Shown one piece after another: positions 7,313-31,525 of a DNA stretch of 32,000 nt; position 1 is the stretch's first letter; every line of letters begins with the position of its first letter. The position numbers and the translations under genes were made by a program. The DNA comes from Candidatus Saccharimonadota bacterium (GTDB lineage: Bacteria > Bacillota_I > Bacilli_A > Mycoplasmatales > Hepatoplasmataceae). Under the pieces are notes generated by a model. That model searched no databases. It was not told where the DNA came from and saw only the letters and a program-made list of their open reading frames with translations. The DNA lies in the NCBI GenBank assembly GCA_027925325.1, contig AP027133.1:240001-272000 (forward strand), given 5' to 3'.

Positions 7313-7365
7313 AAATTAAGTTTTTAGTAAATAATTAATTATTAAAATATTTAGGAAAATTAAAC

Positions 7366-10195: not shown

Positions 10196-12862
<2,667 letters not shown>

Positions 12863-12881
12863 AAAATAAAAGGAAAGATTT

Positions 12882-14648
12882 ATGAGTTCGAAAACAACAA
12901 AGAAATCACAATCCAGTCCTAGTCAATACGGACTTCTTACTTTAATTGCAATTATTGTTGGAACGGTGATTGGATCAGGTATTTATGTAAAAAATGGTTC
13001 ATTAGTAGAGCAATCACAATCAATTATTTTATCAACAATCGGTTGAATAATTGGTGGTCTAATCGTTCTTTCGATGCTTATTGCATTTATTGAAATTATT
13101 TCAATTACTAATAAAAGAAAAGAGCAAGGAACTTTTACGGCTTGAAGTAGATATCTCTGAGGCGAAAAAACAGCAAAATTAATTGGAGGATATTTTTTAT
13201 TTATCTATTTTCCCTTAATAATTGCTTCTGAATCAATTTTTGTCGGAAATGAATTTTATCTTATTTTTTATCCTAATGGAACTGGAGGAAATGAATTAGG
13301 ATGATTTTTCATTATTTCAATTATTGCTTTGCTTGTAATTTTATTTGCTTTTTCAATTACCATTTTTACAACAAAATCCGGAGAAGTTATTCAATCATTT
13401 GGGACAATTACAAAAGTTTTACCATTGTTTTTTTTATTGGTATTATTATTTGTATCATTGGGTTTAAACGGTAATTATGATAATACACTTATAAATGATG
13501 GTGCATTTGATCCTAACTCGGATGTAAACACCGGACTTAGCCAAAATGGTTTTTATCATTTACTACTTATTTTACCGGCTATTTTATTTGCATTTGATGG
13601 ATTTTTATTTGCTGCTTCTCTTTCAACAGAAGCAAAGAGTCCTAAAACTTACAAAAGAGCTTTAATTATTGCAGTATTTTTTATTACCGCAATTTATCTT
13701 TTATTCTCAATTTCTTCTTTTTTATTAGGAGATGGGAATGGATCAGAAAGTAATTATGCAATCAATGGAATTATTGTTTCAATATTTACAAAATTTGGTC
13801 TAGAAACGTTAGGGAATGATTTACAAATAATAATAACTGTTGTTTTAATGATTTCGATTACAACAGCTGTATTTGGGTATTCTCTTTCATCGATGTGAAC
13901 TTTATCTGATAGTTCAAACCTTGATGAAATTGTCGATAAAGATGGTTTGATGATTAGAAGAAGTTATAAGGGAATTCCAACGATGGCAGGAACAAAAATG
14001 CTTATTTATTCTCTTATTGCTCTTCTTGTTATGCGCCTTCTTGATGGGATTTTTATTTTAGTTGTTGCTAATAATCCTTCAACAATAGGGATGACCGATT
14101 ATATGTCAAATTTATTTACATTAACAAATTTTGTTATGTATTCATTTATTATTATCGGTGCAATTTCGAATCGATTTATAAACAAAGTCGAAACAGAAAA
14201 GCAAAAAGGATTTATGATTTGTGCTTTCTTTGCTGTTATTATGATTTTATTATCTGTTTCATCTTTAATTTATTCTTTAATTGATGGTTTATTTATTTCT
14301 AAAGCTGAAGATGCTATTATTTTAAAGACAATATCTATTGTTATTTTTATTGTTGCTATTTTTGCTGTTTATTTATTTAATTATTGACATACTAGAAAAA
14401 AAGTTTCGCAAAATAAAAAATATAAAGAATTTTATAAATATGCTTATAATAATAAAATTCCCTTTTTAGAATATTTAAATGAGCAAAAAAAATCACAGAA
14501 GCAATTAATTAAATATAATAAGACAAAAGAAATGAGCTTTAATCAAAAGGTTTCTGGTCATTTAAAAAAACAGAAAAAATTATGAAAAGAGATGTGAATT
14601 GACTTTAAAAAATGAATTAAGAATATTTTTCATAAAAAAGGTAAATAA
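12882..14648 (+). CDS. Amino acid (APC-superfamily) permease
   Basis: The 588-aa frame-3 ORF joins 12882.., 13329..13898 and 13947..14387 through TGA codons. It has multiple hydrophobic helices, an N-terminal LLTLIAIIVGTVIGSGIY motif typical of APC transporters, and a basic C-terminal tail. GGAAAG lies upstream of the ATG. Confidence 0.8.
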
Positions 14649-14760
14649 AATAAATAATTTTTTAATTTTAAAAAAATAGTTTATTATATAAATTATTGTA
14701 TTAATTTTTTAAGACTGCAGATTAAAAATTGCATTAAATATATAAAATTTGGGGTTTTAA

Positions 14761-17103
14761 TTGATTAATTTGATGAAAAAATTTGTTTTTAATATTTTTT
14801 CTTTATTGATACTTGTATTGGGTCTTTCTATTGGCCAAATTGGGATAAATTTAAATCTAGATAATGATGAAAATTCATTTAAAACATATGATAATAATCA
14901 AAGTGATATTGATCAATTATTAGTTGGTTTAAATCAATCTTTTTATGTTGATCCTAATACTAAAACACTTTATCAAAATGATTATGATTTAACACTTTTG
15001 GCAAGTCCTGATAATTCTAATAATTGGGTTGAAAAAGACTTAAATTCCAATTTATTTATGCAAGATTTTAGCTATAATATAGATACAATTACCTATGATT
15101 TAAATTTTGAATTAGATACAAAAAATAATTGAAATACAAATTTTTATTTGCGTGCTGATGATTATTTATTTATTACTTATTTTACAAGTAAAAGTGATTA
15201 TGATTATCTTTATTTTAAACTTCCAGAGGAGATAAGCACAGTAGAAATTGCTGATTTTGGATATGTAAATAATCAATTTATTGTTTTATTTGCTAATGGC
15301 GATTTTACCTTGGGAGAATCTTTTTTTGAATATGATCAAGATAATAGTTTATATTCTGATTTTAAATATTTAAATGCTGGTAAAATGATTGATTTAGTGA
15401 TGACTGATACTTATTTATTTGCGTTATCAGATCAGGGGGCAATTTATCAATATGGAGTAGATATTTTTAATGTCTTAAGTTTTGAATCAAATTTAGATCA
15501 ACCATTAATTGTATATTCTTATGATCAAAATTTAGATCAAGGATATTATTATACTTATAAATCAAATCGTAATCAAGCACAAAATATTAGTCTAATTAAT
15601 GGTTATGCACTTGAACTATCAATCGAAGTTGACAGTAATTCTTCTAGTGATAATAATTTAATTATTAAAACAGATCGTAATTTTTATCAAATTTATTATT
15701 ATAGAAATTATTTTATTACAGTTGATCAATTTTTTAATGAAGATAACTATAATGTAAATTCTTATAGTATTAAAGAAAATCATTTTAATGATTCAAAACT
15801 TTATGCGATTAATACTTTAAATCCTGATAATTATCTTTATATTACAAGTATTAATGATTTTTCAGAAATTTCATTACAAATAATTGATTTTAATTTATTA
15901 ACTGATATTAAAAATACCTCAATTGATGGTTATTCATCTCCAATTTATCAAAAAGAAATTATTAATTTTGCAGAAACAGAATCACCAGATGTTTATTTAA
16001 TAAAAACAAATGATGATTTGGAATATTTGATTAAATTAATAATAGAAGATCAAAATATTATATATTATGAAGTTACAACTTATAATTGAATTGATAAATT
16101 AGAAGAAAGTAATTTTAGCGGAAAGATACGTTTAGTATCACAAAATCAAACATCAGTGGAATTTGAAGTTGTTGATACTAAAATAAATAGTGACAGATCT
16201 TTAGAAGATGCAAATTTTGCGATTAAAATTAATAATGTATTAGTTGATGATTCTTATTATACTTTAAAATTTGAAGGAATTTATTATGATCAAAATAATA
16301 CTTTAAGTTATCATTTTAAAGTCAATTTTGGATTAGCAAGTTCAAATTCCTTGATTTATTTTGATCAGGTTGAAATGTATAATCAAAGTAACCAATTAAT
16401 TTCAAAAAATACTAATTATATGTCTTATACTGAAATGCAATCAGCAATTATAAAACAAAATAATAGTTTTGAAATTATTGAAAATAGTCAAGATGATAGT
16501 GATACTAGTTTTTACTTTACAATTTCATTTTTAGTAACCGGTGATTATAATTTTGCAAATGATGATGTTGTTTCCTTGAATGCTTTAGAAGATGTGAATG
16601 GAGTTACAAAAAATGTTAATTTAGATACAACTTATGTTAAGTCAATTCAAAATGTAGATTCTCAAACTCCTTTTGGTGAAGTAAATAAGACTTACGAATA
16701 TGAAGTTAATAATTTAGATGAAGAAGCTGTTTATAGTAATTTTAATTTAATTGTATCTCAACCCAATGTTATCGGTGATGTCCAAACAGAAACATTTGCT
16801 TTAAATACAAGTGCTCAATTTATTAGTGGAGGAAATTCAGCTTTTCCAATTACAGCATATATTTTATTAGTGGTATTTATTTTATTATTTGTAGTTATCT
16901 TTGCTTTTTATTATTTAAATTATGTTTATAATAAAAAATCAGCAGAAAAAATTGAATATACTTTTGAAAATTGAAATAATCTTTCTGATCTTGAAATTAA
17001 TAAAAATGATAAGACAATTAAAACAGAAGAGTACAATCCCGGCACTATTCATAGAAAAAATGATCACGATCAAGATATAAAGCAAAAAAACAACAAAAAT
17101 TAA
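14761..17103 (+). CDS. Large (about 780 aa) secreted or tail-anchored surface protein: N-terminal signal-like helix, Tyr/Asn/Asp-rich ectodomain, C-terminal TM helix and a ~55-aa charged tail
   Basis: ORFs 14761..15132, 15148..16089 and 16156..16974 are all in frame 1 and joined by TGA codons. The frame continues to TAA 17101..17103. The N-terminus is (MINL)MKKFVFNIFSLLILVLGLSIGQ with no Cys. The TM helix is FPITAYILLVVFILLFVVIFAFYYL. The start is either TTG 14761 (GGGG 7 nt upstream) or ATG 14773. Confidence 0.8.
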
Positions 17104-17140
17104 AATAATTTATAATTTTATTAAATTTGAATAATAAATT

Positions 17141-17854
17141 ATGCACCGTTTTTTTATCGACCAACAATTTGAAAATAATATAATAAATCCATCAAAAGAA
17201 ATCCTTCATCAATTGATAAAAGTATTAAGAATCAAAAAAAATGAAGATTTTATTGTGATTCAAAATAAAAAGGAATACCTTTGCAATTTAATTAATAATC
17301 AAATAATTTTAAAAAAGAAGCTAATTAAACAAAATTATCAAAAAGAAAATGAATTAATCTTAGTTCAAGGAGTTCCCAAAAGTAATAAATTATCATTTAT
17401 TTTACAAAAATCAACAGAAATTGGTGTTAAAAAAATCTATCTCTGAAAAACAGATTATTCTAATATTTTATTTGCTGATATTTTAAAAAAAGATCAGAGA
17501 TTTAAAAAAATATTAAAAGAGGCAGCAGAGCAATCAAATAGAATTGATTTTCCTGATATTTCTTATATCGATAAATTAGAACAAATAGAATTTAAAGATG
17601 ATGATTTATTATTTGTTTTTTATGAAAAAGCCGATCCAATCAAGGAAAATTTTAAAAAATATTTTTTTAAATTATCTAATTCAAATAAATTTAAAAGAAT
17701 AATTATTTTTATCGGTCCAGAAGGTGGATGAAGCGAAAAAGAAATTAATTTACTAAAGTTAAAAGATGCTAAATTAGTTTCGATGGGAGAAAATATTTTG
17801 CGAACAGAAACAGCAGCTATTGTTGCACTTGCTTTAGTGAAATATTTAATTTAA
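17141..17854 (+). CDS. rsmE: 16S rRNA (uracil1498-N3)-methyltransferase RsmE
   Basis: 237 aa under table 4. It has the MHRFFI N-terminus, GPEGGWSEKE (W = TGA 17729..17731) and MGENILRTETAAIVAL, all typical of the RsmE family. Confidence 0.9.
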
Positions 17855-17859
17855 TAAAT

Positions 17860-19155
17860 ATGAAAAATATAACATTTATAGATGAAGCTAAAATTAAAAT
17901 AAAGGCTGGAAATGGTGGCGATGGAAAACTTGCATTTCATCGAGAAAAATATGTTGAACGAGGAGGCCCTTCGGGTGGCAATGGCGGAAATGGAGGCTCA
18001 ATATATTTTAAGGCAACAACAAATTTAAATACCCTTTTAGGTTTTCGGGGTAAATCAATTTATAAAGCTGAAAATGGACAAAATGGCGATATTAAAAATA
18101 TGACCGGAAGGAATGGAAAAGATTTTTTTATTTTAGTTCCGATTGGAACAGAAATAATTTTAAATGAGCAAAAATTAATTGATCTTACCTATAATAATCA
18201 GATAATTATTGTTGCAAAGGGTGGAAAAGGCGGAAGAGGAAATGCTTCTTTTAAATCTTCTAAAAATAATGCACCTACAATTTATGAAAAAGGCGAACAA
18301 ACAGAATTTATCGAAGTTATTCTAAATTTAAAATTACTCGCTGATGTCGGATTACTGGGATTGCCCAATGCGGGAAAATCAACTTTAATTTCGGTTATTT
18401 CAAATGCAAGACCAAAAATTGATAATTATCAATTTACAACATTAAAACCACAATTAGGTGTTGTAAATTATAAAAATAATAATTTTGTAATTACTGATTT
18501 ACCAGGTTTAATTGCCGGTGCGAGTCAAAATAAAGGGATGGGAATTGAATTTTTAAAACATCTTACAAGAACAAAAATTTTATTGCATTTAATTTCAGCT
18601 GAAGAAAAAGATTTATTAAAAAATTATCGATTAATTAGAAAGGAAATTTCGCTTTATTCAAAAAAATTAGCAAAAACTCCAGAAATTATCGTAATTACAA
18701 AAATGGATATTCTTAATAAACAACAAAAAGAAATAATTAAAAACGCTTTTTCAAACAAAAAAATATTTTTTATTAGCGCAATTAAGCATCAAGGTTTAAA
18801 TTTATTATTACAAGAAATTGTTGATAATCTTAATAATATAAATAAATTAAGACAAATTGAAAATGATAAATTTTTAAATAAGGAAACAGAAGAATTTATT
18901 TATCATAAATATCAAAAAGAATCAATTGAATTTGAGATTGTCAAAAAAGATAATACTTGAATTATTAGTGGTAAATATCCTAAATATTGAGCTAATAGAA
19001 TTCCACTTACAACATATGAAAATTATTTAAGAATTATTAAAAAATTTGAAAATAAAGGAATTATTGCAGAATTAAAAGCAAAAGGTTTAAAAGAGGGTGA
19101 TATTATTACCGTAAAAGATACTTATTTTACGGTTGAATATCAAAATAACTTTTAA
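17860..19155 (+). CDS. obg: GTPase Obg/CgtA
   Basis: 431 aa. It has the Gly-rich Obg fold (AGNGGDGKLAFHREKYVERGGPSGGNGGNGGSIYF), G1 GLPNAGKST, G3 DLPGLI, and a C-terminal extension read through TGA at 18958 and 18988. Confidence 0.95.
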
Positions 19156-19223
19156 ATTTAAAAAAAATATTTTATAATAATATTTATATTTGTATAATTT
19201 GGTAATATAAAATTTATTACATT

Positions 19224-19826
19224 ATGGCACAACAAAATAAAGTAAAAATTAAACAAGAAGATCGTATTTCAATTAAAAATATAATTGATGATTCTAATCC
19301 CAAATTACGTGAAATTTCATTTGATGTTCCTTATCCACTTTCAAAAGAAGATAAACTTATAATGCATCAAATGATTGATTATGTTCGTAGTTCTGTTGAT
19401 CCCAATCGTGATCAAAATGACAAAAGAGAGTTAAGACCAGCTTATGGAATTAGTGCTATTCAATTAGGATATCCTAAAAAAATGCTTTTTATCCATGTTC
19501 CAAATGAATTTGGAAAAGAACCAGAAGAATTTGCACTTGTAAATCCAAAAGTAATTCAATATACAGATAAAAAAGCATATCTTGCAGGTGGAGAAGGTTG
19601 TCTTTCTGTTAATGCCAGTCATCCTGGATATGTATTAAGAAGTTACGGTATTAAAATTGTCGCAATTGATTACTTTACTGATCGTGAAGTGGAGATTGAT
19701 GCAAAAGGATTAACGGCAGTTGTTTTACAACATGAAATAGATCATCTTTTAGGAATTTTATTTTATGATCGAATAAACAAATTACAACCATTTATTTTAA
19801 TTGACAAAAAAGCAATTAAATTGTAA
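19224..19826 (+). CDS. def: Peptide deformylase
   Basis: 200 aa with the three PDF motifs GISAIQLG, EGCLS and QHEIDHL. An extended -10-like tgtataat lies at 19191..19198. Confidence 0.95.
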   Translation: MAQQNKVKIKQEDRISIKNIIDDSNPKLREISFDVPYPLSKEDKLIMHQMIDYVRSSVDPNRDQNDKRELRPAYGISAIQLGYPKKMLFIHVPNEFGKEPEEFALVNPKVIQYTDKKAYLAGGEGCLSVNASHPGYVLRSYGIKIVAIDYFTDREVEIDAKGLTAVVLQHEIDHLLGILFYDRINKLQPFILIDKKAIKL

Positions 19827-19869
19827 AAAATGATATTTTTGTAAATTAACAAGATGAAGGAGTTTTAAA

Positions 19870-21576
19870 ATGAATGATGAGGATAAAAACGAATCATTCC
19901 AATTAGATATTAAAAAAATTCCACCGATGTATGTTTATGCATTAGGTGGATTAGGCGAAGTTGGAAAAAATATGTATATTGTCGAGCAAGGGAATGAACT
20001 TTGAATCGTCGATTCAGGGATTATGTTTGCGGCAGAAATTAGTGTTGAAGGTATCATTCCTTCCTTTGAATGATTAGAAAAAAATCAAAAGCGGATTAAA
20101 GGATTAATTATTACACATGGACATGAGGATCATATCGGTTCAATTCCTCACCTTTTAAGTTTGGTTTCAATTCCAAAAATTTATGCTGGAAGAATTGCAG
20201 CTAATCTTATATGATCAAAATTAAGTGAAAGACAGGTTCCAAGACAAAAGATTGATATTATCAATAATAAATCAGTCATAAAGACTTTAAATTTCAAGAT
20301 TGATTTTTTTAATGTTAATCACTCTATTCCAGATTGCTTCGGTGTTAGATTTAAATCAAGACATGGAACCGTTGTTACGACAGCTGATTTTAAATTTGAT
20401 TTTACTCCTGTTGGTGCAAAAGCCGATCTTTATAAAATGGCTTCATTTGGAAACGAAGGAGTAACTTTATTATTATCTGATTCAACAAATGCCCAATCAG
20501 AAAAATTTTCTGTTTCAGAAAAAGTTGTTGCCCAGAATATCGATAATATTGTGAGCAAAACAAAAGGAAGAGTTATCGCTGTTACCTTTGCTTCTAATGT
20601 ATTTCGTGTTCGAGAGTTAATTAAAATTGCGATGAAATATAAGCGTAAAATCGTTGTTTTTGGTTATTCAATGGATAAAATAATTAAGATTTCACGAAAA
20701 ATAAAATATATAAATCTCGATGAAAATATAATAATTGATACAAAAAATATGGACAAATATAAAGAAAATCAATTATTTATTATCTCAACTGGAACACAAG
20801 GAGAACCAACTGCTGCACTTACAAAGATGTCTGATGGAAGACACAAAGAAATTCATGTCAATGAACGAGACACGATTATTTTTGCCTCTAGTGAGATTCC
20901 AGGGAATTATTTAAATATTGAACATGTTATTAATAATTTAATCAAAAAAGGGGCTAAAATTATCACTAACCATAATTATCCTGGCGTTCATGCTTCTGGT
21001 CATGGAGGAATGCAAGAGCAATTACTAATGCTTAATCTTTTAAAACCTTTTTATTTTTTTCCTATTCACGGAGAAACGGTTATGCAGGTAAAGCATGCTA
21101 AAACAGCAATTGCTGCTGGAATTAAAAAAGAAAATATTTTTATTATTCCTAATGGTCGCAAGTTAAAAGTTTATCATGGTAAAGTGACTCTTGATGATTA
21201 TGTACCAACAGATAATATTTATATTGATGATACGAATTTAAAAGGTCAATCATCAAAAGTTATCACCGATCGTAATTCAATGAGTGAATTTGGAGTGGTT
21301 GCGATTACAGTTGGAATTAATTCAAAAGAAAATAAGATAATTATAAATCCTGAACTTACAAGTTATGGAACGATGAATCAACAAAAAAATCGTAATTTTA
21401 TTACACAAATTGAAAACAAAGTTAAAAACAATCTTGATCTTTATTATCGTAGTAAAGAACGGATAACATTTAATAATATTAAAGAAATTATCCGTAATTC
21501 AGTCCGCGATGAAATTTATCAAAAAAGAAAAACATCTCCGATCGTTATTCCGATTGTTTTAAATTGCAATTTTTAA
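19870..21576 (+). CDS. rnj: Ribonuclease J
   Basis: 568 aa in frame 1, starting at ATG 19870 after GAAGGAG. Motifs seen: [17 protein letters not shown], the metallo-beta-lactamase motif [13 protein letters not shown], and later HASGHG and the beta-CASP region. Several in-frame TGA codons are present. Confidence 0.92.
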
Positions 21577-21613
21577 AAAATATAAAATTATTAAAAAGGT
21601 AATATTATAATTT

Positions 21614-22624
21614 ATGGAAAAGAAAATTCTATTTTCTGGTTTAACATCAACTGGAAGATTAACTTTAGGGAATTATATCGGTTCTCTTAATAAACTTTTA
21701 AATTTGCAAGCAGAAAAAAATAATGAAATAGTTATTTTTGTGGCAAATTTACACGCTCTTACAATTCCGCTTAAAAGAGAACAATTGATTAGAAATGTTA
21801 AGGAAAATTTAAAATTATATCTAGCGATCGGAATTGATCCTAAAATAACAAAAATTTATTTACAATCACAGATAAAAGAAGTAAATGAGCTTTTTTATAT
21901 TTTATCGACACTGACAACGATGGGTCAACTACAAAGAATGACACAATATAAAGATAAGGCCAAAAAAGAGGCAAATTCTACTTTTAAAATCCCAACCGGA
22001 ATTTTACTTTATCCGATTTTGATGGCGGCTGATATTATTCTTTTTAATCCAGATTTTGTTATCGTTGGTGATGATCAAAAACAACATCTTGAATTTACAA
22101 GAGATTTAATTTTAAGATTGAATAATAATTATGATACGGATATTAAATTAGTAAAACCTAAAATCGCATCGATTGAAGAAGGATCAAGAATTATGGCTCT
22201 TAAAAATCCAACGCAAAAAATGTCTAAATCTGATCACAATAAAGATAATACAATTTTTTTATTGGATGATATTAAAGAAGCAAGAAGAAAAATCTTAGGA
22301 GCCTTAACAGATTCAGAAGATAAGATATATTATAATCTTTCTAAAAAACCAGGAATTTCAAATTTACTTGTAATTTATAGTGCGATTAAGAATATTCCTT
22401 TGAGTTTTGCAGAAAAAGAATTTAAAAATTTAAATGATTATCGTAAATTTAAAGAAATTGTCGCTGATACAGTTTGTGATTTGTTAACAAAAATTCAAAA
22501 AAACTATCATAATTTAGATGACGATAAATTGCAAAAAAATTTAGATTATAATCTAAAATATTTAAAAAATCGCGCAAATAAAAATTTAGATCAAATTAAA
22601 AATAAAATTGGTCTACTTTTTTAG
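21614..22624 (+). CDS. trpS: Tryptophan--tRNA ligase
   Basis: 336 aa, class I aaRS. It has an N-terminal SGLTSTGRLTLGNYIG, GDDQKQHLEFTRD and the KMSKS motif. Confidence 0.93.
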   Translation: MEKKILFSGLTSTGRLTLGNYIGSLNKLLNLQAEKNNEIVIFVANLHALTIPLKREQLIRNVKENLKLYLAIGIDPKITKIYLQSQIKEVNELFYILSTLTTMGQLQRMTQYKDKAKKEANSTFKIPTGILLYPILMAADIILFNPDFVIVGDDQKQHLEFTRDLILRLNNNYDTDIKLVKPKIASIEEGSRIMALKNPTQKMSKSDHNKDNTIFLLDDIKEARRKILGALTDSEDKIYYNLSKKPGISNLLVIYSAIKNIPLSFAEKEFKNLNDYRKFKEIVADTVCDLLTKIQKNYHNLDDDKLQKNLDYNLKYLKNRANKNLDQIKNKIGLLF

Positions 22625-22640
22625 AAAATAAAGGTGAATA

Positions 22641-23579
22641 ATGAGTAATAAAAATATCAATTATAAACAAGAGAAATATTTTATAAATCCAACAATTGTT
22701 CAAAGTCCATATTGATTAATTACGATCGATCTCGATGGAACTTTATTAAAAACACCTTCAAAAGATGATCTTTTGAAAAATATTCCTAATTATGAAATAA
22801 GTAAAAATAATCTTTCAATTTTGAAAAAATTGATCAATCAAGGACATAAAGTGGCAATCGTAACAGGGAGACCTTGAAGAGATACGGAAGAAATTTATAA
22901 AAAAATCGGTTTAAGAACCGTTGTGGCAAATTATAATGGGGCATCAATTCATAATCCAAATGATGAAGGATTTATTCCTTATACATCAGCGATGAATCGA
23001 AAATATTTTGATGGACTTTTGAATCGAACAAGTATCAAAAAATATTATAAAAATTTTGTTGTTGAATGTTATGATACAACATATATTTTAGATGCAACTG
23101 ATAAAGATTTTTTAAATAAATTTCATATCCATTATGGACCAAAAGTAATTGAAATTAGCAAAGATTTTGCTTTGCCGATAAATCCACAATCACTTATTTT
23201 TAAATTACAACCAAAGAAAAATTTTGATAAATATAGTTTACTTATTGAATTAAAAAGAAAATATGGAGAGACATTTTTATTTAGATATTGAGATACTTTA
23301 GATGGAAAGAATTTTCTTTATTTAGAAGTAAATACAAAATCTATTACAAAAGGAAGTGCATTGCAATTTATCGCTTCATATTATAATATTCCTATTTCAA
23401 ATACGATTGCTTTTGGTGATGGCGAAAATGATTTAGAAATGCTTGAAGCAGCAAGTGTCGGTGTAGCGATGAAAAATGCAAGTGATCTTGTAAAATCACA
23501 TGCAAAAGATGTGACAAATTTAACAAATGATGAAGGTGGAGTGGGAGATTATTTACAAAGTTTTTTTAAACTTAAATAA
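22641..23579 (+). CDS. Cof-type HAD-IIB family phosphatase
   Basis: 312 aa in frame 3, joined through TGA codons. It has the HAD motifs IDLDGTLL, VTGRPW and GDGENDLEM. AAAGGTG lies upstream of the ATG. Confidence 0.85.
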
Positions 23580-23590
23580 AAGGAGTTTAG

Positions 23591-24706
23591 ATGAAAAAAA
23601 ATACACAAAAAGAAATTAAAATAAAAATAAATAAAAATCTTATTAAGAATGCAATTAAATTATCAAATTTAAATGGAATTTCTTCTCGTGAAGAAGATAT
23701 TGCAACTTATCTTAAATCAGAATTAAAAAGTATTTCAAATTTAAAAATTGAGCGCGATGGATTAGGATCAATTGCTTTTATTAAAAAGGGGAAAAAAGAT
23801 GGTCCAATTATTTCATTTACAACACATATGGATGAAGTTGGATTCATGATTACTAATATTTCAAAAGATGGATTCATAAGTTTTTCACCAATAGGTGGTT
23901 GATGAAGTCATGTGATATTAGCGCAATTATTGCGAATAATCACAGAAGAAAATAAAAGTGTTATCGGTGTTGTCGGTTCAAAACCACCTCATTTATTGAC
24001 GAGAGAAGAAGCACAGAAGGTTTTATCAATAAAAAGCTTATTTATCGATGTCGGTGCTAAAAGTAAAGAAGAAGTTCTTAAATTAGGAATTAATATCGGT
24101 GATCAAGTTGTTCCCTATCAAAATGATGTCCATAAGATATTGAATAATCGTCTTATTGGGAAAGCTTTTGATAATCGTATTTCTGTTGCAACGGGAATTG
24201 AAATTATGCAACAAATTGCAACGAAAGAACTAGATGCAACGGTTATCTTTGTCTGCTCATCACAAGAAGAAGTTGGACTTAGAGGGGCAAAAACAAGTTC
24301 TTATAAATGAACCCCTGATATTGCTTTTGCAATCGATGTAACAATCGCAAATGATACTCCTGGACTTATTGCAAATGATACAAAATTAGGTTCAGGTCCG
24401 GCTTTATCTTTATTTGATAGTTCAATTTTAGCAAATCCTAATTTATTTAAAAAGATAAAACAAATTGCGGAAAAAAATAAAATTAATTATACGATTGATT
24501 CTCTTACAGGCGGAGGAACCGATGCCGGAACGATTCATCTTACTAAGAACGGAGTTGTTACGATGACAATTTCAATTCCTTCTCGCTACATGCATTCCCA
24601 TAATTCGATTATTGATTTAAAAGATGCACAATTAACAGCTAATTTAGTCGTTAAAATTTTAGATGAATTAAATACAGATTCAATAAATGAAATAAAATAT
24701 AAGTAG
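23591..24706 (+). CDS. M42 family (glutamyl/cellulase-like) aminopeptidase
   Basis: 371 aa in frame 2. Motifs seen: THMDEVGF, PIGGWW (two consecutive TGA codons), GKAFDNR, SQEEVGLRGA, GGGTDAG and SRYMHS. AAGGAG lies upstream. Confidence 0.88.
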
Positions 24707-24776: not shown

Positions 24777-27701
24777 TTATTTTTTTTCAAATGCATTTGG
24801 ATCATCTAACATTTTAGATATTTCTTTTGTTTTCTTTTTCATTCTAAGATCAACAAATAATAAAACTAATATTAAAATAATTAATATTATCAATATTACC
24901 ATTATTAAATATATTATATTTTTCGTTGTATTATTATTATCAGTCTTTATTATTCCATTCTCAGAAATATCTAATGAATCATCTTCGATTGAATTGGTAA
25001 AACTTAAACTAGTAAAATTATAGGTAGTATTAGCTTTAAGATTATTAACTTCAAAACTAAATTGATATTGCATAGTTCCATTTTCTTGATTCTCACTTAA
25101 TTTAATAGCACTTCCTTCGATATAATTTGAATTATAACTATCGTTATCATTATCGATTAAATATAACCCATCTTCTAAATTGAAATTTTCAAATACTGGA
25201 TTTTGTTCATTATCATCTAATAAAATTAAATTATCGATTGCTACGGTATAAGTAAATGAATTTTTTGTAATTGAGGATTGATCAATAATGAAACTATCAT
25301 TCACAAAATTTTTATCAATTATAGTAGTTTCAATGATAAATGGATTAGAAAAATTAATAACATCATCATTTGAAATATTAGGATCAATAATACTTAAACC
25401 AATAAATTGATAAGTTTGTCCCGTTATAAGATTATCTTGTAAAAATGTTAATTGATAATTTTGTGTTCCGTTTATTGAACCATTTGAAATTATTTTTGCA
25501 TCAATAAATGTTGAATGATAGTAATTATTATCTTGATCAATAAGTCAAATTCCTTCATTTACATCATATTGTGTAAAATTTGTTTTATCAGAATTTGTTT
25601 TTAAATTATCAATTTCAAGTGTATATTGAAATTCACTTGTTTGTAAAGAATTATCAACTAATGAAATTGTATCTGCTTTTATTTCAGGTACGGCTGCTTC
25701 TGTTATAAATTTTGTTGGATCTTGATTAACTTCATATTTGTATTGATTATCATCATAAAAATATTGAACGATATCTATTTGATAATTTGTTTCTGCATTT
25801 AAATTTGTTAATTCAAATTGATAATTATCATCAATAAAAAATTCTTTAGAATTAGAAATATTATTATCAAGATCAGTGTAATTAATTTTTATTTTCCTTT
25901 GATCATTTGTGTAACCATTGATATCAAAATTATTGCTATTTTGATCTAAATTTAAAGCAAAAGTAGCTGTCTCTTCCGTAGCCGAAACAAAATTATAACT
26001 AGAAATTAAATAATCTATTGTAATTTCTTGTTGATTTAATTCAAATTCATTTCCATTAATTATTATTTTAGTAAAATCATAACTTTGACCATACATAATA
26101 TCATTTATTTGATAATAATATTGATCACTTTCAATATTTGATTTATCATTAATAAATGTTGTTGTATAATTGTCATTATTTTGATCAACTAATGTTATTA
26201 TTGGTTCTTGATTTAAAATATTTTTATAATCATTTAAAATAATATTAAATTCAATCTTATTTCCTTGTTGATAATAAAATTCTATTTCATTAATCAAAAA
26301 ATCAAAAGAAGAATCAATTATCGTTGGAACATGTTTATCAACTGTACTATTATCGCCAAGTTGTCCATCGGCATTATATCCTCACATATACAAGGTATCA
26401 GCATATCCATCTAAATCTTTATCAATTGTAACACCACTATGATATCCACCTAAACTTAAATCAATAATATCTGCATTTCAATCACTTTGCCCTTGTGGTA
26501 TTATTTTTATCGGAATATCCTTATTATTTGTACTATTATCGCCAATTTGACCATAATTATTTCTTCCTCACATATACAAGATATCGGCATATCCATCTAA
26601 ATCAATATCAATTGTAACTCCGCTATGATAGTATCCTAAACTTAAATCAATAATGTTTCCGTTTCAATCACTTTGATTTTGTGGTGTTATTTTTGTTGGA
26701 ATAAGTTTATTATTTGTACTATTATCACCAATTTGGCCACTACCATTATATCCTCACATATACAAGGTATCGGCATATCCATTTAAATCAGTATCAATTG
26801 TAGCGCCACTATGATCTGAACCTAAACTTAAATCAATAATGTTTCCGCCTCAATCACTTTGATTTTGTGGTGTTATTTTTGTTGGAATAAGTTTATTATT
26901 TGTACTATTATCACCAATTTCTCCACTACTATTAGCTCCTCACATATATAATGTATCGGCATATCCATCTAAATCTTCATCGATTGTTAAACCACTATGA
27001 TCTGTTCCTAAATTTAAATCAATAATGTTTCCGCCTCAGTTTGTTTGTTCAGAAGGAGTTATTTTTTTTGGGACATATCTAGGACTTCTAGTATTATCGC
27101 CTATTTGTCCATTACTATTATCACCTCACATATAAAGTGTATCAGCATATCCATCTAAATCCGTATCAATTGTAACTCCACTATGAGTTGAACCTAAATC
27201 TAAATCAATAATGTTTCCGCCTCAATCACTCTGTCCTTGTGGTGTTATTTTTGTTGGAATATATTTATGATCTGCTATACTGCCATCACCAATTTGGCCA
27301 AAAGTATCATTTCCTCACATATACAAGGTATCGGCATATCCATCTAAATCTGTATCAACTGTAGCACCACTACCATAATCGCCTAAACTTAAATCAATAA
27401 TGTTTCCGCCTCAATCTTCTTGCTCAGCAGGAATTATCTCTATTGGTACATATTTATCTTCTGTACTATTATCACCAATTCCTCCATAATCATTAGCTCC
27501 TCACATATAGAGACTATCAGCAGCTTTATCTGAATTAGTGTCAACTGTAGCACCACTAGCATTTCCACCTAAACTTAAATTAATAATATTATCATTTTGA
27601 TTTAAATTTAAATCTTTTTCTTTTTTATTAAAAAAAGAATTAAATGAATTAAATTCTATTAATATTAGTGGAATTAAAAATGCAATAAATAATTTTTTCA
27701 T
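24777..27701 (-). CDS. 974-aa surface protein: signal peptide, seven-bladed RCC1-like beta-propeller with DxDxDG loops, four FN3/Ig-like stalk modules, C-terminal TM anchor
   Basis: ORFs 27501..27701, 25545..26297 and 24777..25304 share one frame (2925 nt = 975 codons). The gaps translate cleanly when TGA = Trp. The sequence (Y)MWGxNxxGQIGDNS recurs 7 times. The TM helix is IIYLIMVILIILIILILVLLFV, followed by a basic tail. Confidence 0.88.
26320..27587 (-). repeat. Seven tandem units of about 186 nt (62 aa) encoding the RCC1-like blades
   Basis: Consensus: IIDLSLGxxHSG(V/A)TIDTDLDGYADTLYMWGxNxxGQIGDNSTxxKxIPTKITPQxQSDWGGN. Both Trp residues in each blade are TGA, seen as 'cctca' on the + strand about every 186 nt. 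Confidence 0.88.
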
Positions 27702-27763: not shown

Positions 27764-30698
27764 TTAATTATTTTTGCTCTCTTTTTTAAGTTGATTAGGA
27801 TCATCCAATATTTTAGATATTTTTTTTGTTTTCTTTTTCATTCTGATATCAAAAAATAATAAAGTTAATATTAATATTATTAATATTATTAAAATTATCA
27901 ATATTAAATAGACTATATTTTTTGTTGTATTATTATTATCAGTTTTTATCGTTCCATTTTCAGAAATATCTAATGAATCATCTTCGATTGAATCGGTAAA
28001 ACTTAAATTAGTAAAATTATAGGTAGTATTAGCTTTAAGATTATTAACTTCAAAACTAAATTGATATTGCATAGTTCCACTTTCTTGATTCTCACTTAAT
28101 TTAATAGCACTTCCTTCGATATAATTTGAATTATAAATATCATTATTATCAATTAGATATAATTCATCTTCTAAATTAAAATTTTCAAATATTGGATTTT
28201 TTTCATCTTCATTTACTAAAATTAAATTATCGATTGATACGGTGTAAATAAATGAATTTTTTGTAATAGAAGATTGATCAACAATAAAACTATCAGTAAC
28301 AAAATTTTTATCAATTGTAGTAGTTTCAATAATAAATGGATCAGAAAAATTAATAACATCATCTAATGATGTATTTGGATCAGTAATACTTATTCCAATA
28401 AATTGATAAGTTTGTCCACTCACAAGATCATCTTGCAAAAATGTTAATTGATAATTTCGTGTTCCATTTATCGTTCCATTTGAAATTATTTTTGCATCAA
28501 TAAAAGTTGAATGATAATAATTATTATCTTGATCAATAAGTCAAATTCCTTCATTTACATCATATTGTGTAAAATTTGTTCTATCAGAATTTGTTTTTAA
28601 ATTATCAATTTCAAGTGTATATTGAAATTCACTTGTTTGTAAAGAATTATCAACTAATGAAATTGTATCCGCTTTTATTTCAGGTACGGCTGCTTCTGTT
28701 TTAAAAACAACTATATTTTGCTCAATTGTGTATTTATAATTTCCATTTTCATAAAAATAATTAATAGAATCAATTTTATAATTTGTTTCTGCATTTAAAT
28801 TTGCTAATTCAACTTGATAATTATTATCAATAATAAATTGCTGAGAATCAGAAATATTATTGTCAATATTTGTATAATTTAATTCTATTTTTCTTTGATC
28901 ATCTGTGTAATTATTAATATCAAAATTATTACCATTTTGATCTAGATTTAAAGAAATGATAGCTGTTTCTTCGGTAGAGGAAACAAAATTATAACTAGAA
29001 ATTAAATAATCTGTTGTAATTTCTTGTTGATTTAATTCAAATTCATTTCCATTAATTATTATTTTAGTAAAATTATAACTTTGACCATGCATAATATCAT
29101 TTATTTGATAATAATATTGATCACTTTCAATATTTGATTTATCATTAATAAATGTTGTTGTATAACTATCATTATTTTGATCGATTAATGTTATTGTTGG
29201 TCCTTGATTTAAAATGTTTTGATAATCATCTAAAATAACACTAAATTCAATTTTATTTTCTTGTTGATAATAAAATTCTATTTCATCAATAAAAAAAGCA
29301 AATGAAGAATCAATCAATTTTGGAACATATTTGTTGATTGTACTATTATCACCAATTTGACCATGTTCATTATATCCTCACATATATAAAGTATCGGCAT
29401 ATCCATTTAAATCAGTATCAATTGTAGCGCCACTATGATCTGAACCTAAACTTAAATCAATAATGTTTCCGCCTCAATCTGCTTGTCCAATTAAAGTTAT
29501 CTCTGTTGGAACATTATCATTACTTATATTAATGGAACCAAGTTGTCCTTCACTATTGTCTCCTCACATATACAAAGTATTAGCATATCCATCCAAATCA
29601 GTATCAACAGTAACACCACTCACTATGATATTTGCCCAAGTTTAAATCAATAATACTACCAGCTCAATCATCTTGCTCAACAGGCTTTATTTCTATTGGG
29701 ATAATTTTTTCTTCTGTACTATTATCGCCAATTTGACCATAATTATTTCTTCCTCACATATACAAGATATCGGCATATCCATCTAAATCAGTATCAATTG
29801 TAACTCCGCTATGATAGTATCCTAAACTTAAATCAATAATGTTTCCTCCTCAATCATTTTTTCCTTCTGGAGTTATTTCTGTTGGCACATATTTATCTTC
29901 TGTACTATTATCACCAATTTGTCCATCACTATTATCCCCTCACATATATAATGTATCGGCATATCCATCTAAATTTTCATCGACTGTAATGCCGCTATGA
30001 TATTCACCTAAACTTAAATCGACAATATTTCCGCCTCAATCACTCTGATTTTGTGGTGTTATTTTAGTTGGAACATATTTATCTTCCTCACTATTATCAC
30101 CGATTTGGCCATAATAATTAGATCCTCACATATATAATGTATCGGCATATCCATCTAAATCCGTATCAATTTCAACTCCGCTATGATAGTATCCTAAATT
30201 CAAATTAATAATATTGCCACCTCAATCACTCTGTCCTTGTGGTGTTATTTTTGTTGGAACATATTTATCAATTGTACTATTATCACCAATCTGCCCACTA
30301 AAATTATTCCCTCAAATATACAAGGTATCGGCATATCCATCTAAATCAGTATCAATTGTAACTCCATTATCATTTCCACCCGAATCTAAATCAATAATTT
30401 TTCCGCCTCAATCATTTTGTCCTTCTGGAGTTATCTCTGTTGGTACATATTTATCTTCTGTACTATTATCACCAATTTGCCCATATTGATTATCTCCTCA
30501 CATATACAAGGTATCTGCATTTTTATCTGAATCTATGTCAATAATAGCGCCACTATCATCCCCACCTAAATCTAAATTAATAATATTATCATTTTGATTT
30601 AAATTTAAATTTTTTTCTTTCTTTATTAAAATGGAATCAAAAGTATTAAATTTTATTAACATTAATGGAATTAAAAAAACGATCAAGAATTTTTTCAT
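27764..30698 (-). pseudogene. Tandem paralog of 24777..27701, disrupted by a 4-bp duplication (frameshift) in blade 6
   Basis: The length of 2935 nt is not divisible by 3. The N-terminal ORF 30498..30698 is out of frame with 28541..29317 and 27764..28438. + strand 29617..29624 reads CACTCACT where every other blade has a single CACT (...aacaccactatgat...). Removing 4 nt restores HSGVTVDTDLDGYANTLYMWG and a 976-aa reading frame. Confidence 0.8.
29340..30584 (-). repeat. Seven ~186-nt RCC1-like blade repeats of the second paralog
   Basis: The period and consensus match those of 26320..27587. One blade has YIWG instead of YMWG (30312..30320). Confidence 0.85.
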
Positions 30699-30832
30699 AA
30701 TAGAAAAATTATATTCGAATTTATTTTTTTATTTAAACTATATTTTGTTTTTTCAAATTAAAAATAAATTTAATTTAAAAAATAAAATTAATGATATAAA
30801 TATATATAGGAGTTTAATTTTATTTAAATTTT

Positions 30833-31525
30833 ATGTTCAAAAGTAGGTTTTTTTCTTTATTTTTTAGCTTTGTGATCTTTTTTTCATTATTTGGATTTGT
30901 TGATACAAAGAAAATAAAAAATGATAGTTTTTTAAAATATCAAAATCAAGCTGAATTTTTGGTTAGCGCTAATGCTAAAGAAAATATTTATACAGCAAAT
31001 GTTAATAGTGTAGGTAGGGATAGTATTAAATTTACAGTTTATGATATTCCCAGTGAATTTATTCCAAGTGATTTAACAGGTGAAGTTATTTATGCTTTTT
31101 CATTAGATCAAAATGCTAGTGATTCTGCTGATTTTCCAAATAATACAAATATAAAAGTAGATGAGGTAATTTTAGATAGTAATGATCAAACATATGATTT
31201 TGTTTTTACTGTTTCTGATTTAGATTCAAGTACAACTTATGAAATTTATTCTATTTATGGATGATATGCAGATAGCAATAATCCAAATGATTGAATTCCA
31301 TTCAGTGATGGTGATGGAAATAATGAAATTCAACTTGTGAACGAAAGTGGTGAAGCAGGGATTAGCGGAACTACCAAAATAGGATCAGGATATTTTTACG
31401 GAATTATTGCAATTTCTATTGTTGTCTTTATTTTACTTATTTTAATTATTGTTTTATTCTTAGTAAGATTTAAGGATTATCGTAAAACAAAAGAAAAATA
31501 CGATTTATTAAATAAAGAGTTATAA
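30833..31525 (+). CDS. 230-aa tail-anchored surface protein: signal-like N-terminus, one FN3-like module, C-terminal TM helix
   Basis: ORFs 30833..31264 and 31337..31525 are in frame and joined through two TGA codons (...IYSIYGWYADSNNPNDWIPFSDG...). The N-terminus is MFKSRFFSLFFSFVIFFSLFGFV. The module motif YDFVFTVSDLDSSTTYEIYSI resembles the stalk modules of the propeller proteins. The TM helix is YFYGIIAISIVVFILLILIIVLFLV. Confidence 0.8.

What the first reader, a model, noticed from the sequence alone, without database searches (positions are those of the whole stretch)
24777..27701. Seven-bladed RCC1-like propeller with DxDxDG loops on an FN3-like stalk, anchored by a C-terminal TM helix
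The blades carry the RCC1 hallmark (L-Y-M-W-G-x-N-x-x-G-Q-(I/L)-G-D and G-x-x-H-S-G). Between the His strand and the WG strand, each blade inserts T-I-D-T-D-L-D-G-Y-A-D, a DxDxDGxxD sequence of the type that binds Ca2+ in integrin FG-GAP repeats and thrombospondin type-3 repeats. Seven such loops would ring one face of the propeller, which would make a plausible Ca2+-dependent ligand-binding head. Four beta-sandwich modules hold this head away from the membrane, followed by a type-I TM anchor and a short basic tail. I know of no characterised mollicute surface protein with this domain combination.
Basis: partly seen in the sequence, partly recalled or inferred. Interest (0 to 1): 0.7.

Follow-up and report, generated by a model that had tools for sequence, protein, structure and literature searches.

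The report
Membrane-anchored RCC1 propeller with calcium-type loops
This gene, from a woodlouse gut-gland symbiont (Candidatus Hepatoplasma scabrum), encodes a cell-surface protein with a seven-bladed RCC1-type propeller on a four-module stalk; each blade carries an integrin-style calcium-binding-type loop, which makes it a candidate attachment protein, although its overall architecture has already been published from computer predictions.

Summary
Read with genetic code 4, 24777..27701 (minus strand) is one 974-aa ORF, identical to HPPSJP_2360 of Candidatus Hepatoplasma scabrum. Pfam, AlphaFold2 and Foldseek agree on the layout: N-terminal hydrophobic leader, seven-bladed RCC1 propeller, four FN3/Ig-like sandwiches, one TM helix and a basic tail. 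Each blade has a 9-residue Dx[DN]xDGxxD loop, about 6 residues longer than the UVR8 hairpin. Across 157 blades of 24 related proteins, loop positions 1, 3, 5 and 9 are 93-98% D/N, while positions 2, 4 and 7 vary. This is the "calcium blade" signature, known so far from integrin/FG-GAP-type propellers and not reported for RCC1. The loop is absent from about 95 generic bacterial RCC1 hits. It was found only in crustacean-associated mollicutes.

Two corrections apply. Kawato et al. 2024 already list this gene and describe the propeller plus four Ig-like folds for a relative, but without calcium or membrane anchor. Also, the loops sit on the face that carries both chain termini and are the most conserved loops. 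The opposite face evolves fastest. A structural, integrin-like Ca2+ role therefore fits better than a Ca2+ ligand site. Ca2+ binding and adhesion are untested.

The parts
24777..27701 (-). Complete CDS (974 aa plus stop), genetic code 4; identical to HPPSJP_2360 / BDV03515.1 of Candidatus Hepatoplasma scabrum Ps-JP
27621..27701 (-). N-terminal hydrophobic leader (aa 1-27, MKKLFIAFLIPLILIEFNSFNSFFNKK). It is a presumed Sec signal peptide; cleavage was not shown and there is no lipobox Cys
   Evidence: (helix 5-21, low pLDDT)
26319..27590 (-). Seven-bladed RCC1-type beta-propeller (aa 38-461; 28 strands, blades of 62-63 aa)
27516..27542 (-). Blade 1 B-C loop DTNSDKAAD (variant: Lys at position 6)
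27330..27356 (-). Blade 2 B-C loop DTDLDGYAD (Dx[DN]xDGxxD)
27141..27167 (-). Blade 3 B-C loop DTDLDGYAD
26955..26981 (-). Blade 4 B-C loop DEDLDGYAD
26769..26795 (-). Blade 5 B-C loop DTDLNGYAD
26583..26609 (-). Blade 6 B-C loop DIDLDGYAD
26397..26423 (-). Blade 7 B-C loop DKDLDGYAD
26013..26306 (-). Stalk module 1 (aa 466-563), a seven-strand beta-sandwich
25698..26012 (-). Stalk module 2 (aa 564-668), a beta-sandwich with a sub-threshold Pfam fn3 match
25320..25697 (-). Stalk module 3 (aa 669-794), a beta-sandwich homologous to module 4
24936..25319 (-). Stalk module 4 (aa 795-922), a beta-sandwich 35% identical to module 3 (E 2e-21)
24852..24917 (-). Transmembrane helix (aa 929-950, IIYLIMVILIILIILILVLLFV)
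24780..24851 (-). Short cytoplasmic tail (aa 951-974, DLRMKKKTKEISKMLDDPNAFEKK; basic next to the membrane)
27764..30698 (-). Tandem paralogue with the same architecture (76% aa identity once repaired). It is split into two ORFs (HPPSJP_2370/2380) by a 4-nt AGTG duplication at 29617-29624

Best explanation
HPPSJP_2360 is a type-I membrane-anchored surface protein of the isopod hepatopancreas ectosymbiont Candidatus Hepatoplasma scabrum. It is one member of a lineage-specific, multi-copy family. Shown or strongly predicted: an N-terminal leader, a seven-bladed RCC1-type propeller, four FN3/Ig-like modules, one TM helix and a short basic tail. Each blade's B-C hairpin is lengthened by about 6 residues into a Dx[DN]xDGxxD loop, the sequence signature of the integrin-type 'calcium blade'. 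Inferred: the seven loops each bind one extracellular Ca2+. They ring the face of the propeller that also carries both chain termini, which is the stalk- or membrane-proximal face. There they stiffen the propeller and its seating, as the Ca2+ hairpins on the underside of integrin alpha propellers do. Also inferred: the opposite, distal face, built from the fast-evolving A-B (G-x-x-H-S-G) and C-D (W-G-x-N-x-x-G-Q-I-G...) loops, is the surface that contacts a host ligand on the brush-border microvilli to which Hepatoplasma attaches. On this reading the protein is a Ca2+-stabilised adhesin or host-interaction protein. Its paralogues differ mainly in the distal loops and in stalk length (0-4 modules).
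For: Identity and code. RCC1 fold: Pfam 4.5e-63 and 5e-59, PDB sequence hits to UVR8 and HERC2, AF2 pLDDT 86.4 with 7x4 strands, Foldseek UVR8 E 1e-30 with target-normalised TM-score 0.92. Stalk: four sandwiches in AF2 and Foldseek matches to FN3/Ig arrays at E 1e-9 to 4e-10. Anchor: hydropathy up to 3.97 over aa 929-950, then a KKK-rich tail. Loop signature: 157 blades with D1 at 96%, D/N3 at 98% (D 56%, N 42%, the near-parity Rigden et al. 2011 describe), D/N5 at 96% and D9 at 93-96%, with positions 2, 4 and 7 free. Clade specificity: the loop occurs in 24 of the 120 best hits, all mollicute-type, and in none of about 95 generic RCC1 proteins. A DNA motif scan of 185,579 GTDB species genomes hit only Ca. 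H. crinochetorum and the Mycoplasmataceae MAG GLR43, plus two chance-level hits. A scan of 241 million metagenome records found one real Hepatoplasma-like fragment. Face assignment: the strand order A-B-C-D repeats seven times. In UVR8 the CGWRHT motif, which is the end of the first strand plus the A-B loop, lies at the dimer-interface face, so the B-C and D-A loops and the termini lie on the other face. Conservation: A-B 2.03, C-D 2.57 and B-C 3.18 bits; identity between orthologues is 29-38% for A-B and 64-82% for B-C. Stalk-less homologues P0257 and P0220 put the TM helix about 10-13 residues after the last strand. Biology: Hepatoplasma adheres to B-cell microvilli and the adhesion mechanism is unresolved. 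Kawato et al. suggest these proteins take part in host interaction.
Against: There are no experimental data for any family member, so Ca2+ binding, surface exposure and adhesion are all inferred. The face assignment rests on topology, not on measured distances. In the GLR43-type relatives position 3 is mostly Thr, and in several Hepatoplasma blades Gly6 is replaced by Q, N or K, which is unusual for canonical sites. The hairpin profile finds only non-significant EF-hand-like matches in the PDB (E 0.4-9) and no FG-GAP/VCBS match in Pfam. If the N-terminal leader is not cleaved, the protein would be tethered at both ends and the 'stalk' picture would change. With a flexible head-stalk linker (pLDDT about 65 at aa 461-470) the termini-bearing face might still be accessible to ligands.
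Confidence: 0.5

Rival explanations
1. One reading: the seven Ca2+ loops themselves form a multivalent, Ca2+-dependent (lectin-like) ligand-binding face that recognises host glycans or proteins.
For: There are seven equivalent sites on one face. A conserved Trp in the neighbouring D-A loop (P-Q-x-Q-S-D-W-G-G-N) lies on the same face in Hepatoplasma-type proteins, and Ca2+ combined with aromatic residues is typical of sugar sites (own knowledge: C-type lectins, LecB). Variable loop positions 2, 4 and 7 could tune specificity. The head-stalk linker has lower confidence and so could be flexible.
Against: This face also carries both chain termini and the stalk attachment (topology). In stalk-less homologues it must lie against the bacterial membrane. 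The loops are as conserved as the core strands across paralogues, while the other face diverges fastest, which is the opposite of what is expected for a specificity-determining surface in an expanded family. In integrins the equivalent Ca2+ hairpins are not the ligand site (own knowledge; Rigden 2011, lists their role as potentially regulatory).
Confidence: 0.17
2. The Asp-rich hairpins bind no metal. They are simply a lineage-specific, lengthened beta-hairpin whose Asp/Asn residues cap turns and keep a very acidic ectodomain soluble, in a genome whose AT bias favours Asp, Asn and Ile.
For: The genome is about 25% GC and the protein is 11% Asp and 12% Asn, with a net charge of about -105 outside the membrane. 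Thr occupies position 3 in GLR43-type proteins and Gly6 is lost in several blades. AF2 folds the loops confidently without ions. There is no significant similarity to any solved Ca2+ site.
Against: Composition bias does not explain conservation that is specific to positions 1, 3, 5 and 9, free variation at 2, 4 and 7, a fixed loop length of 9 in 157 blades, or the D/N near-parity at position 3 that is typical of real sites. Extracellular location is where such motifs are usually functional.
Confidence: 0.2
3. The propeller is not an adhesin but a surface-displayed binder or inhibitor of host or competitor proteins, in the manner of the RCC1-like beta-lactamase inhibitor BLIP-II. It could, for example, neutralise digestive enzymes or antimicrobial factors in the hepatopancreas lumen.
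For: RCC1/BLIP-II propellers are generic protein-binding scaffolds. The symbiont lives in a lumen rich in digestive enzymes (own knowledge). The rapidly diverging distal loops and the multi-copy family fit an arms-race target.
Against: There is no specific similarity to BLIP-II; the best structural matches are UVR8 and HERC2. A tall FN3-like stalk plus a TM anchor is the classical adhesin layout (and the references cited there). There is no direct evidence either way.
Confidence: 0.12

Closest known systems
RCC1-like proteins of Hepatoplasma described in silico by Kawato et al. 2024 (PMC10928387; model of HCTKY_2170/BDV02923.1)
   Same: It is the same family, and this very gene (HPPSJP_2360) is in their Table S5. 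The layout is the same: a seven-blade propeller plus four Ig-like folds. They also suggest a role in host-symbiont interaction.
   Different: The paper does not mention calcium, the Dx[DN]xDG loops, the signal peptide or the transmembrane anchor (0 occurrences). It calls the RCC1 similarity 'slight', whereas Pfam scores here are far above threshold.
RCC1/BLIP-II superfamily propellers (RCC1, UVR8, HERC2 RLDs; Pfam PF00415, PF25390)
   Same: Seven blades of 51-68 aa, the hallmark motifs (Y-x-W-G-x-N-x-x-G-Q-L-G and G-x-x-H-S), and a close match of the model to UVR8 with Foldseek target-normalised TM-score about 0.92.
   Different: This protein is extracellular and membrane-anchored rather than nuclear or cytosolic. 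Every B-C hairpin is about 6 residues longer and carries Dx[DN]xDGxxD, and the D-A loop is about 4 residues longer with a conserved Trp. No solved RCC1-like structure retrieved here shows such loops.
'Calcium blades' of integrin-type (FG-GAP/VCBS) propellers: integrin alpha, PilY1, Psathyrella lectin, rhamnogalacturonan lyase (Rigden et al. 2011, PMC3123361)
   Same: A Dx[DN]xDG motif plus an acidic residue two positions later, at the tip of a hairpin in a propeller blade, repeated in successive blades of an extracellular seven-bladed propeller that sits on Ig-like domains with a single C-terminal TM helix.
   Different: The blades are RCC1-type. There is no FG-GAP/VCBS match even on concatenated hairpins, so the motif most likely arose independently. 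All seven blades carry it, whereas integrins have 3-4 such blades. Metal binding is unproven here.
Bacterial cell-surface RCC1 proteins with beta-sandwich arrays (Patescibacteria, Bifidobacterium 'InlB B-repeat' proteins and others)
   Same: An RCC1 propeller combined with Ig/FN3-like modules in secreted or surface proteins; 28-36% identity over the propeller.
   Different: None of the roughly 95 examined has the calcium-type hairpin. They also have different accessory domains and anchors.

Membership tests
RCC1 / RCC1-like domain beta-propeller (PF00415, PF25390) | Profile match above the curated threshold | tested here: met
   PF25390 scores 214 bits against a cut-off of 150. PF00415 scores 197 bits against a cut-off of 21.7, with 7 stretches.
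RCC1 / RCC1-like domain beta-propeller (PF00415, PF25390) | Seven tandem repeats of about 51-68 residues that form a seven-bladed propeller of four-stranded blades | tested here: met
   There are seven units of 62-63 aa. AF2 predicts 28 strands with pLDDT mostly above 90. Foldseek gives UVR8 at E 1e-30, target-normalised TM-score 0.92 and rmsd 2.2 A.
RCC1 / RCC1-like domain beta-propeller (PF00415, PF25390) | Guanine-nucleotide-exchange or Ran/chromatin binding (function of the founding member) | not tested
   This is not expected for an extracellular bacterial protein, and it does not define the fold family.
Calcium blade (Dx[DN]xDG propeller motif, Rigden et al. 2011) | Dx[DN]xDG motif with an additional acidic ligand two residues after the motif | tested here: met
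   All seven blades keep D1, [DN]3, [DN]5 and D9, and six of seven keep G6. The same pattern holds in 157 blades of the family.
Calcium blade (Dx[DN]xDG propeller motif, Rigden et al. 2011) | Motif at the tip of a hairpin between adjacent strands of a propeller blade | tested here: met
   By DSSP on the AF2 model, strand B ends at D1 and strand C starts after D9 in all seven blades. This is a prediction, not a solved structure.
Calcium blade (Dx[DN]xDG propeller motif, Rigden et al. 2011) | Sequence relationship to FG-GAP/VCBS/integrin-type blades | tested here: not met
   There is no FG-GAP, VCBS or Int_alpha hit at E<=1 on the protein or at E<=10 on concatenated hairpins. The PDB profile search of the hairpin returns no integrin-type hit.
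Calcium blade (Dx[DN]xDG propeller motif, Rigden et al. 2011) | Bound Ca2+ with coordination by positions 1, 3, 5, 7 (carbonyl) and 9 | not testable with these tools
Biochemistry or a solved structure is needed.
Fibronectin type III / Ig-like beta-sandwich stalk | Profile match to fn3 above threshold | tested here: not met
   fn3 scores 13.8-19.7 bits against a cut-off of 25.
Fibronectin type III / Ig-like beta-sandwich stalk | Seven-strand beta-sandwich fold arranged in a tandem array | tested here: met
   AF2 predicts four sandwiches of 7-10 strands. Foldseek matches RPTP-sigma Ig/FN3 and fibronectin Fn7B89 arrays at E 4e-10 to 1e-9. Kawato et al. call them Ig-like.
Type-I single-pass membrane protein | N-terminal signal sequence, one C-terminal TM helix, and positive-inside tail | tested here: inconclusive
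   The TM helix (aa 929-950) and the KKK-rich tail are clear. The N-terminal hydrophobic leader is present, but its cleavage cannot be assessed here.

The most novel reading that the evidence does not exclude
An RCC1-lineage propeller independently evolved a full ring of seven functional integrin-type calcium blades. A sister clade evolved a second Dx[DN]xDG insertion in the D-A loop on the same face. The resulting Ca2+-dependent, integrin-like ectodomain (propeller head, Ig/FN3 legs, single TM helix) would be the long-sought adhesin that fixes Hepatoplasma to isopod hepatopancreas microvilli.
Probability: 0.3. Interest if true: 0.62.

Novelty: new variant of a known kind. Interest (0 to 1): 0.45.

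Why it matters
Three points make this worth following.

First, calcium blades have so far been described as a feature of the integrin/FG-GAP/VCBS propeller supercluster. A conserved, seven-fold Dx[DN]xDGxxD hairpin inside unmistakable RCC1 blades would be a clear case of convergent recruitment of the same metal-binding motif in another propeller lineage. It would also be the first RCC1-type propeller predicted to be metal-dependent.

Second, how Hepatoplasma attaches to isopod hepatopancreatic microvilli is explicitly unresolved (PMC13264560). This multi-copy, surface-anchored family, with fast-evolving distal loops and variable stalk length, is a concrete and testable candidate.

Third, the family offers a compact natural example of an integrin-like ectodomain layout in a minimal bacterium.

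The finding is tempered because the gene and its overall fold were already reported in silico, and nothing here has been tested experimentally.

Tried and rejected
1. A table-11 reading gives only fragments and was rejected in favour of code 4.
2. FG-GAP/VCBS/thrombospondin homology was tested and not found. There was no Pfam hit on the protein or on artificial concatenations of the hairpins.
3. A 22-column hairpin profile searched against PDB sequences gave only non-significant hits (E 0.4-9). Most were known EF-hand-type Ca2+ loops (polcalcins, sarcoplasmic Ca-binding protein). This is suggestive but is not evidence.
A 42-aa blade profile returned only 2 irrelevant 45-aa fragments from 28 candidates, so that search was wasted.
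5. The profile search of 1.84 billion representatives was dominated by giant multi-propeller RCC1 proteins. Only three further calcium-loop members could be picked out of the top 150, so more distant calcium-loop RCC1 families cannot be excluded.
6. The stalk-only homologue search returned just 4 hits, probably because low-complexity Asn-rich words saturated the candidate list. It does not prove that the stalk is confined to this family.
7. The promoter/terminator scan was uninformative in this AT-rich DNA.
8. NCBIfam gave no meaningful hit.
9. Neighbouring membrane proteins at 14761..17103 and 30818..31525 share only a short FN3-like E-F strand motif with the stalk, so no relationship was established.
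10. Model coordinates are not exposed. Loop geometry, Trp packing and head-stalk orientation could therefore not be measured.
11. The host species behind assemblies GCA_040777445.1 and GCA_040777365.1 could not be identified.
Full report
OBSERVATION. With the standard bacterial code the region 24777..27701 breaks into short ORFs. With genetic code 4 (TGA = Trp) it is a single minus-strand ORF of 974 aa. All 14 Trp codons are TGA and there is no TGG. The window is about 25% GC. The protein is 100% identical to HPPSJP_2360 of the complete metagenome-assembled genome of Candidatus Hepatoplasma scabrum, a mollicute from the woodlouse Porcellio scaber.

Pfam assigns the N-terminal half to the RCC1-like domain (PF25390, 4.5e-63) and to seven RCC1 repeats (PF00415, 5e-59). 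The best sequence matches among solved structures are UVR8 (8.6e-19) and the HERC2 RCC1-like domains. The seven repeat units are 62-63 aa long. They are 61-84% identical to one another in protein and 72-90% in DNA.

STRUCTURE PREDICTION. An AlphaFold2 model was built on an alignment of 26 family members (A1). It has mean pLDDT 86.4, and most of the propeller is above 90. It contains 28 strands in seven A-B-C-D sets (aa 38-461). These are followed by four beta-sandwich modules (about aa 466-563, 564-668, 669-794 and 795-922) and a long C-terminal helix from residue 924.

Foldseek against the PDB puts UVR8 first (E 1e-30, target-normalised TM-score 0.92, rmsd 2.2 A), followed by HERC2, RPGR, RCC1 and Kti13. 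The stalk matches tandem Ig/FN3 arrays such as RPTP-sigma and fibronectin Fn7B89 (E 4e-10 to 1e-9). Pfam fn3 stays below threshold (13.8-19.7 bits against 25). 'FN3/Ig-like' is therefore a fold-level statement. Modules 3 and 4 are clear duplicates (35% identity, E 2e-21).

Residues 929-950 (IIYLIMVILIILIILILVLLFV) are strongly hydrophobic and are followed by DLRMKKKTK. The N-terminus has a moderately hydrophobic leader and the protein has no Cys at all, so it is not a lipoprotein.

THE LOOPS. In each blade, between strand B (..H-S-G-V-T-I-D) and strand C (T-L-Y-M-W-G), lies a nine-residue loop: DTNSDKAAD, DTDLDGYAD (twice), DEDLDGYAD, DTDLNGYAD, DIDLDGYAD and DKDLDGYAD. Compared with UVR8, the hairpin is about 6 residues longer (alignment).

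I collected 157 such hairpins from 24 proteins: 19 Hepatoplasma-type and 5 from other mollicute-like sources. The loop length is fixed. In the Hepatoplasma group, position 1 is D in 96%, position 3 is D or N in 98% (D 56%, N 42%), position 5 is D/N in 96%, position 6 is G in 71% and position 9 is D in 96%. Positions 2, 4 and 7 vary freely. In the second group position 3 is mostly Thr, but positions 1, 5, 6 and 9 are kept.

This is exactly the pattern Rigden et al. (2011) defined for the Dx[DN]xDG motif in propellers, the 'calcium blade'. Their definition comprises the motif, an extra acidic ligand two residues later, Asn nearly as frequent as Asp at position 3, and a location at the tip of a blade hairpin in mostly extracellular proteins. 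AT-biased composition cannot explain a pattern that is this position-specific.

DISTRIBUTION OF THE LOOP. The loop is a clade-specific insertion. Among the 120 best database hits it occurs in all 19 Hepatoplasma proteins and in 5 other mollicute-type proteins. It occurs in none of about 95 generic bacterial RCC1 proteins.

- A degenerate DNA pattern for D-G-x-[AG]-D-x-[LIV]-Y-M-W-G was scanned over one genome for each of 185,579 GTDB species. It hit only Ca. H. crinochetorum (many sites) and the Mycoplasmataceae MAG GLR43. Two single hits in high-GC genomes match the roughly two expected by chance.
- The same scan over 241 million metagenome records found one genuine 22%-GC Hepatoplasma-like fragment.
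- P0033, P0090 and P0082 lie on mollicute-like contigs inside two very fragmented assemblies, GCA_040777445.1 and GCA_040777365.1. These are presumably host genome projects.
- A profile search of 1.84 billion representative proteins returned 117,847 RCC1-type hits. Its top 150 were dominated by giant multi-propeller proteins, and it added only three more calcium-loop members. Distant calcium-loop RCC1 families therefore cannot be excluded.

IS IT AN FG-GAP OR INTEGRIN BLADE? No. No FG-GAP, VCBS or thrombospondin model is hit on the protein or on artificial concatenations of the hairpins. A profile of the hairpin finds only non-significant EF-hand-type loops in the PDB. The blades are RCC1 blades, and the motif resemblance to integrins is best read as convergence. 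A literature search found no paper that links 'calcium blade' with RCC1.

WHICH FACE, AND WHAT ARE THE LOOPS FOR? Strands in a propeller blade alternate in direction. The A-B and C-D loops therefore lie on one face. The B-C loops, the D-A loops, the N-terminus (which enters strand A) and the C-terminus (which leaves strand D) lie on the other face. In UVR8 the CGWRHT motif, that is, the end of the first strand and the A-B loop, lies at the dimer-interface face, which fixes the correspondence. However, it is the face from which the stalk departs.

Three further observations argue that this is a structural face and not the ligand face.

1. Among 19 Hepatoplasma-type proteins the B-C loops carry 3.18 bits per column. 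That is as much as the core strands (A 2.89, B 3.06). The A-B loops carry 2.03 bits and the C-D loops 2.57 bits.
2. Between the target and its closest relatives (P0002, P0004, P0005), the A-B loops are 29-38% identical, the C-D loops 39-58% and the B-C loops 64-82%.
3. Two stalk-less homologues (P0257, and P0220 from a sister type) place the TM helix about 10-13 residues after the last strand. Their termini-bearing face must therefore sit on the bacterial membrane.

This mirrors integrin alpha subunits. There the Ca2+ hairpins are on the underside of the propeller, towards the thigh domain, and ligands bind the upper face (own knowledge; role summarised).

My preferred model is therefore as follows. 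Ca2+ from the hepatopancreas lumen is bound structurally by the loop ring. The fast-evolving distal face carries the specificity. The protein is an adhesin or host-interaction protein of an ectosymbiont known to attach to B-cell microvilli by an unresolved mechanism.

The steps that are shown are gene, code, fold, motif, conservation and topology. The steps that are inferred are Ca2+ occupancy, surface exposure, leader cleavage and ligand binding.

WHAT IS ALREADY KNOWN. Kawato et al. 2024 searched these genomes for eukaryote-like proteins. They reported seven (H. crinochetorum) and ten (H. scabrum) proteins with 'slight similarity' to RCC1. They showed a ColabFold model of a relative (HCTKY_2170, 991 aa) with a seven-blade propeller and four Ig-like folds, and suggested a role in host interaction. 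HPPSJP_2360, 2370 and 2380 are in their Table S5. The paper contains no mention of calcium, signal peptides or transmembrane segments. The architecture is thus already published in silico. The calcium-blade signature, its face assignment, the membrane anchor and the narrow distribution are what this analysis adds.

FAMILY CONTEXT. Immediately upstream on the same strand lies a tandem paralogue (27764..30698) with identical architecture. It is interrupted by a 4-nt AGTG duplication at 29617-29624, and removing one copy restores a 976-aa ORF that is 76% identical to the target. Elsewhere in the genome HPPSJP_2180 (propeller plus modules 1-2) and HPPSJP_2170 (modules 3-4 plus TM) look like a second split copy. 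Family members carry 0, 2, 3 or 4 stalk modules.

A sister type (P0082, P0084, P0220) lacks the B-C insertion. Instead it has D-[IV]-[DN]-G-[DN]-G-x-x-G-[ND]-E in the D-A loop, which is on the same face.

VERDICT. The novelty claim is overstated.

I rate this a new variant of a known kind, namely an RCC1 propeller with convergent calcium-blade loops on an integrin-like, membrane-anchored scaffold. Interest is moderate.

Noticed in passing
window 27764..30698 (minus strand); duplication at 29617-29624: A tandem paralogue of the target is annotated as two genes (HPPSJP_2370/2380). It is broken by a 4-nt AGTG tandem duplication in blade 6. Deleting one copy restores a 976-aa ORF that is 76% identical in protein (84.6% in DNA) to the target. 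It could be a pseudogene, a reservoir for gene conversion, or an error in an unpolished Illumina-only assembly.
   Followed up: yes
outside the window: HPPSJP_2180 (P0005) and HPPSJP_2170 (P0259): A second paralogue in the same genome appears split. P0005 ends abruptly after stalk module 2. The adjacent 356-aa P0259 is 78% identical to modules 3-4 plus TM of the target. At least two of the 'ten' RCC1-like proteins of H. scabrum are therefore fragments.
   Followed up: partly
window 3..641, 986..7312, 7339..9588 (plus strand): These are giant repetitive ORFs (one of 2108 aa and one of 749 aa, plus a fragment cut off by the window edge). They have about 45-aa 'LENGTTQEEVNKNNKQAIDDLN' repeats, a Cys-rich CGCDDGCGCDDGCDDGCG stretch and C-terminal beta-sandwich repeats of about 95 aa (...LPAGTYSIEIYDD...). 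Pfam gives only weak E-set/Big-like hits. They probably belong to the 'large repetitive ORFs' of Kawato et al. 2024.
   Followed up: partly
window 14761..17103 (+) and 30818..31525 (+): Two further predicted single-pass surface proteins (780 and 235 aa) have an N-terminal leader, a C-terminal TM helix and a basic tail, and no Pfam hit. They share only a short FN3-like 'YxFxFxVxxLxxxTxY' motif with the target's stalk (hhalign probability 50% and 90%).
   Followed up: partly
P0082, P0084, P0220; locus L012 5001..12580 (three tandem genes): A sister type of mollicute surface RCC1 proteins lacks the B-C calcium-type hairpin. It carries a different Dx[DN]xDG insertion (P-x-x-I-D-[IV]-D-G-D-G-x-x-G-N-E-K-I) in the D-A loop, on the same face of the propeller. 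This suggests a second, independent acquisition of the motif.
   Followed up: partly
P0257, P0220, P0033, P0090, P0014, P0001 (family comparison): The number of stalk modules between propeller and TM helix varies from 0 to 4 across the family. The head would therefore be displayed at very different heights above the membrane.
   Followed up: partly
window 24777..27701 and the whole window: Every Trp of the target (14 of 14) is encoded by TGA and none by TGG. Tools that translate with table 11 report 'translates_to_query: no' for all family loci.
   Followed up: yes
target aa 90-99, 153-162, 215-224 and so on (D-A loops): A conserved Trp in the lengthened D-A loop (T-P-Q-x-Q-S-D-W-G-G-N) forms a second ring on the same face as the calcium-type loops in Hepatoplasma-type proteins. 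It is absent from the GLR43-type relatives. Without model coordinates I could not tell whether it packs under the hairpin or is exposed.
   Followed up: no
window 10175..24706 (plus strand): A housekeeping block lies between the repetitive ORFs and the RCC1 genes. By sequence inspection it encodes IleRS, an amino-acid permease, RsmE-like, Obg, peptide deformylase, RNase J, TrpRS and a Cof-type HAD phosphatase. The M42 aminopeptidase was confirmed by Pfam (9.6e-102) and is convergent with the target.
   Followed up: partly
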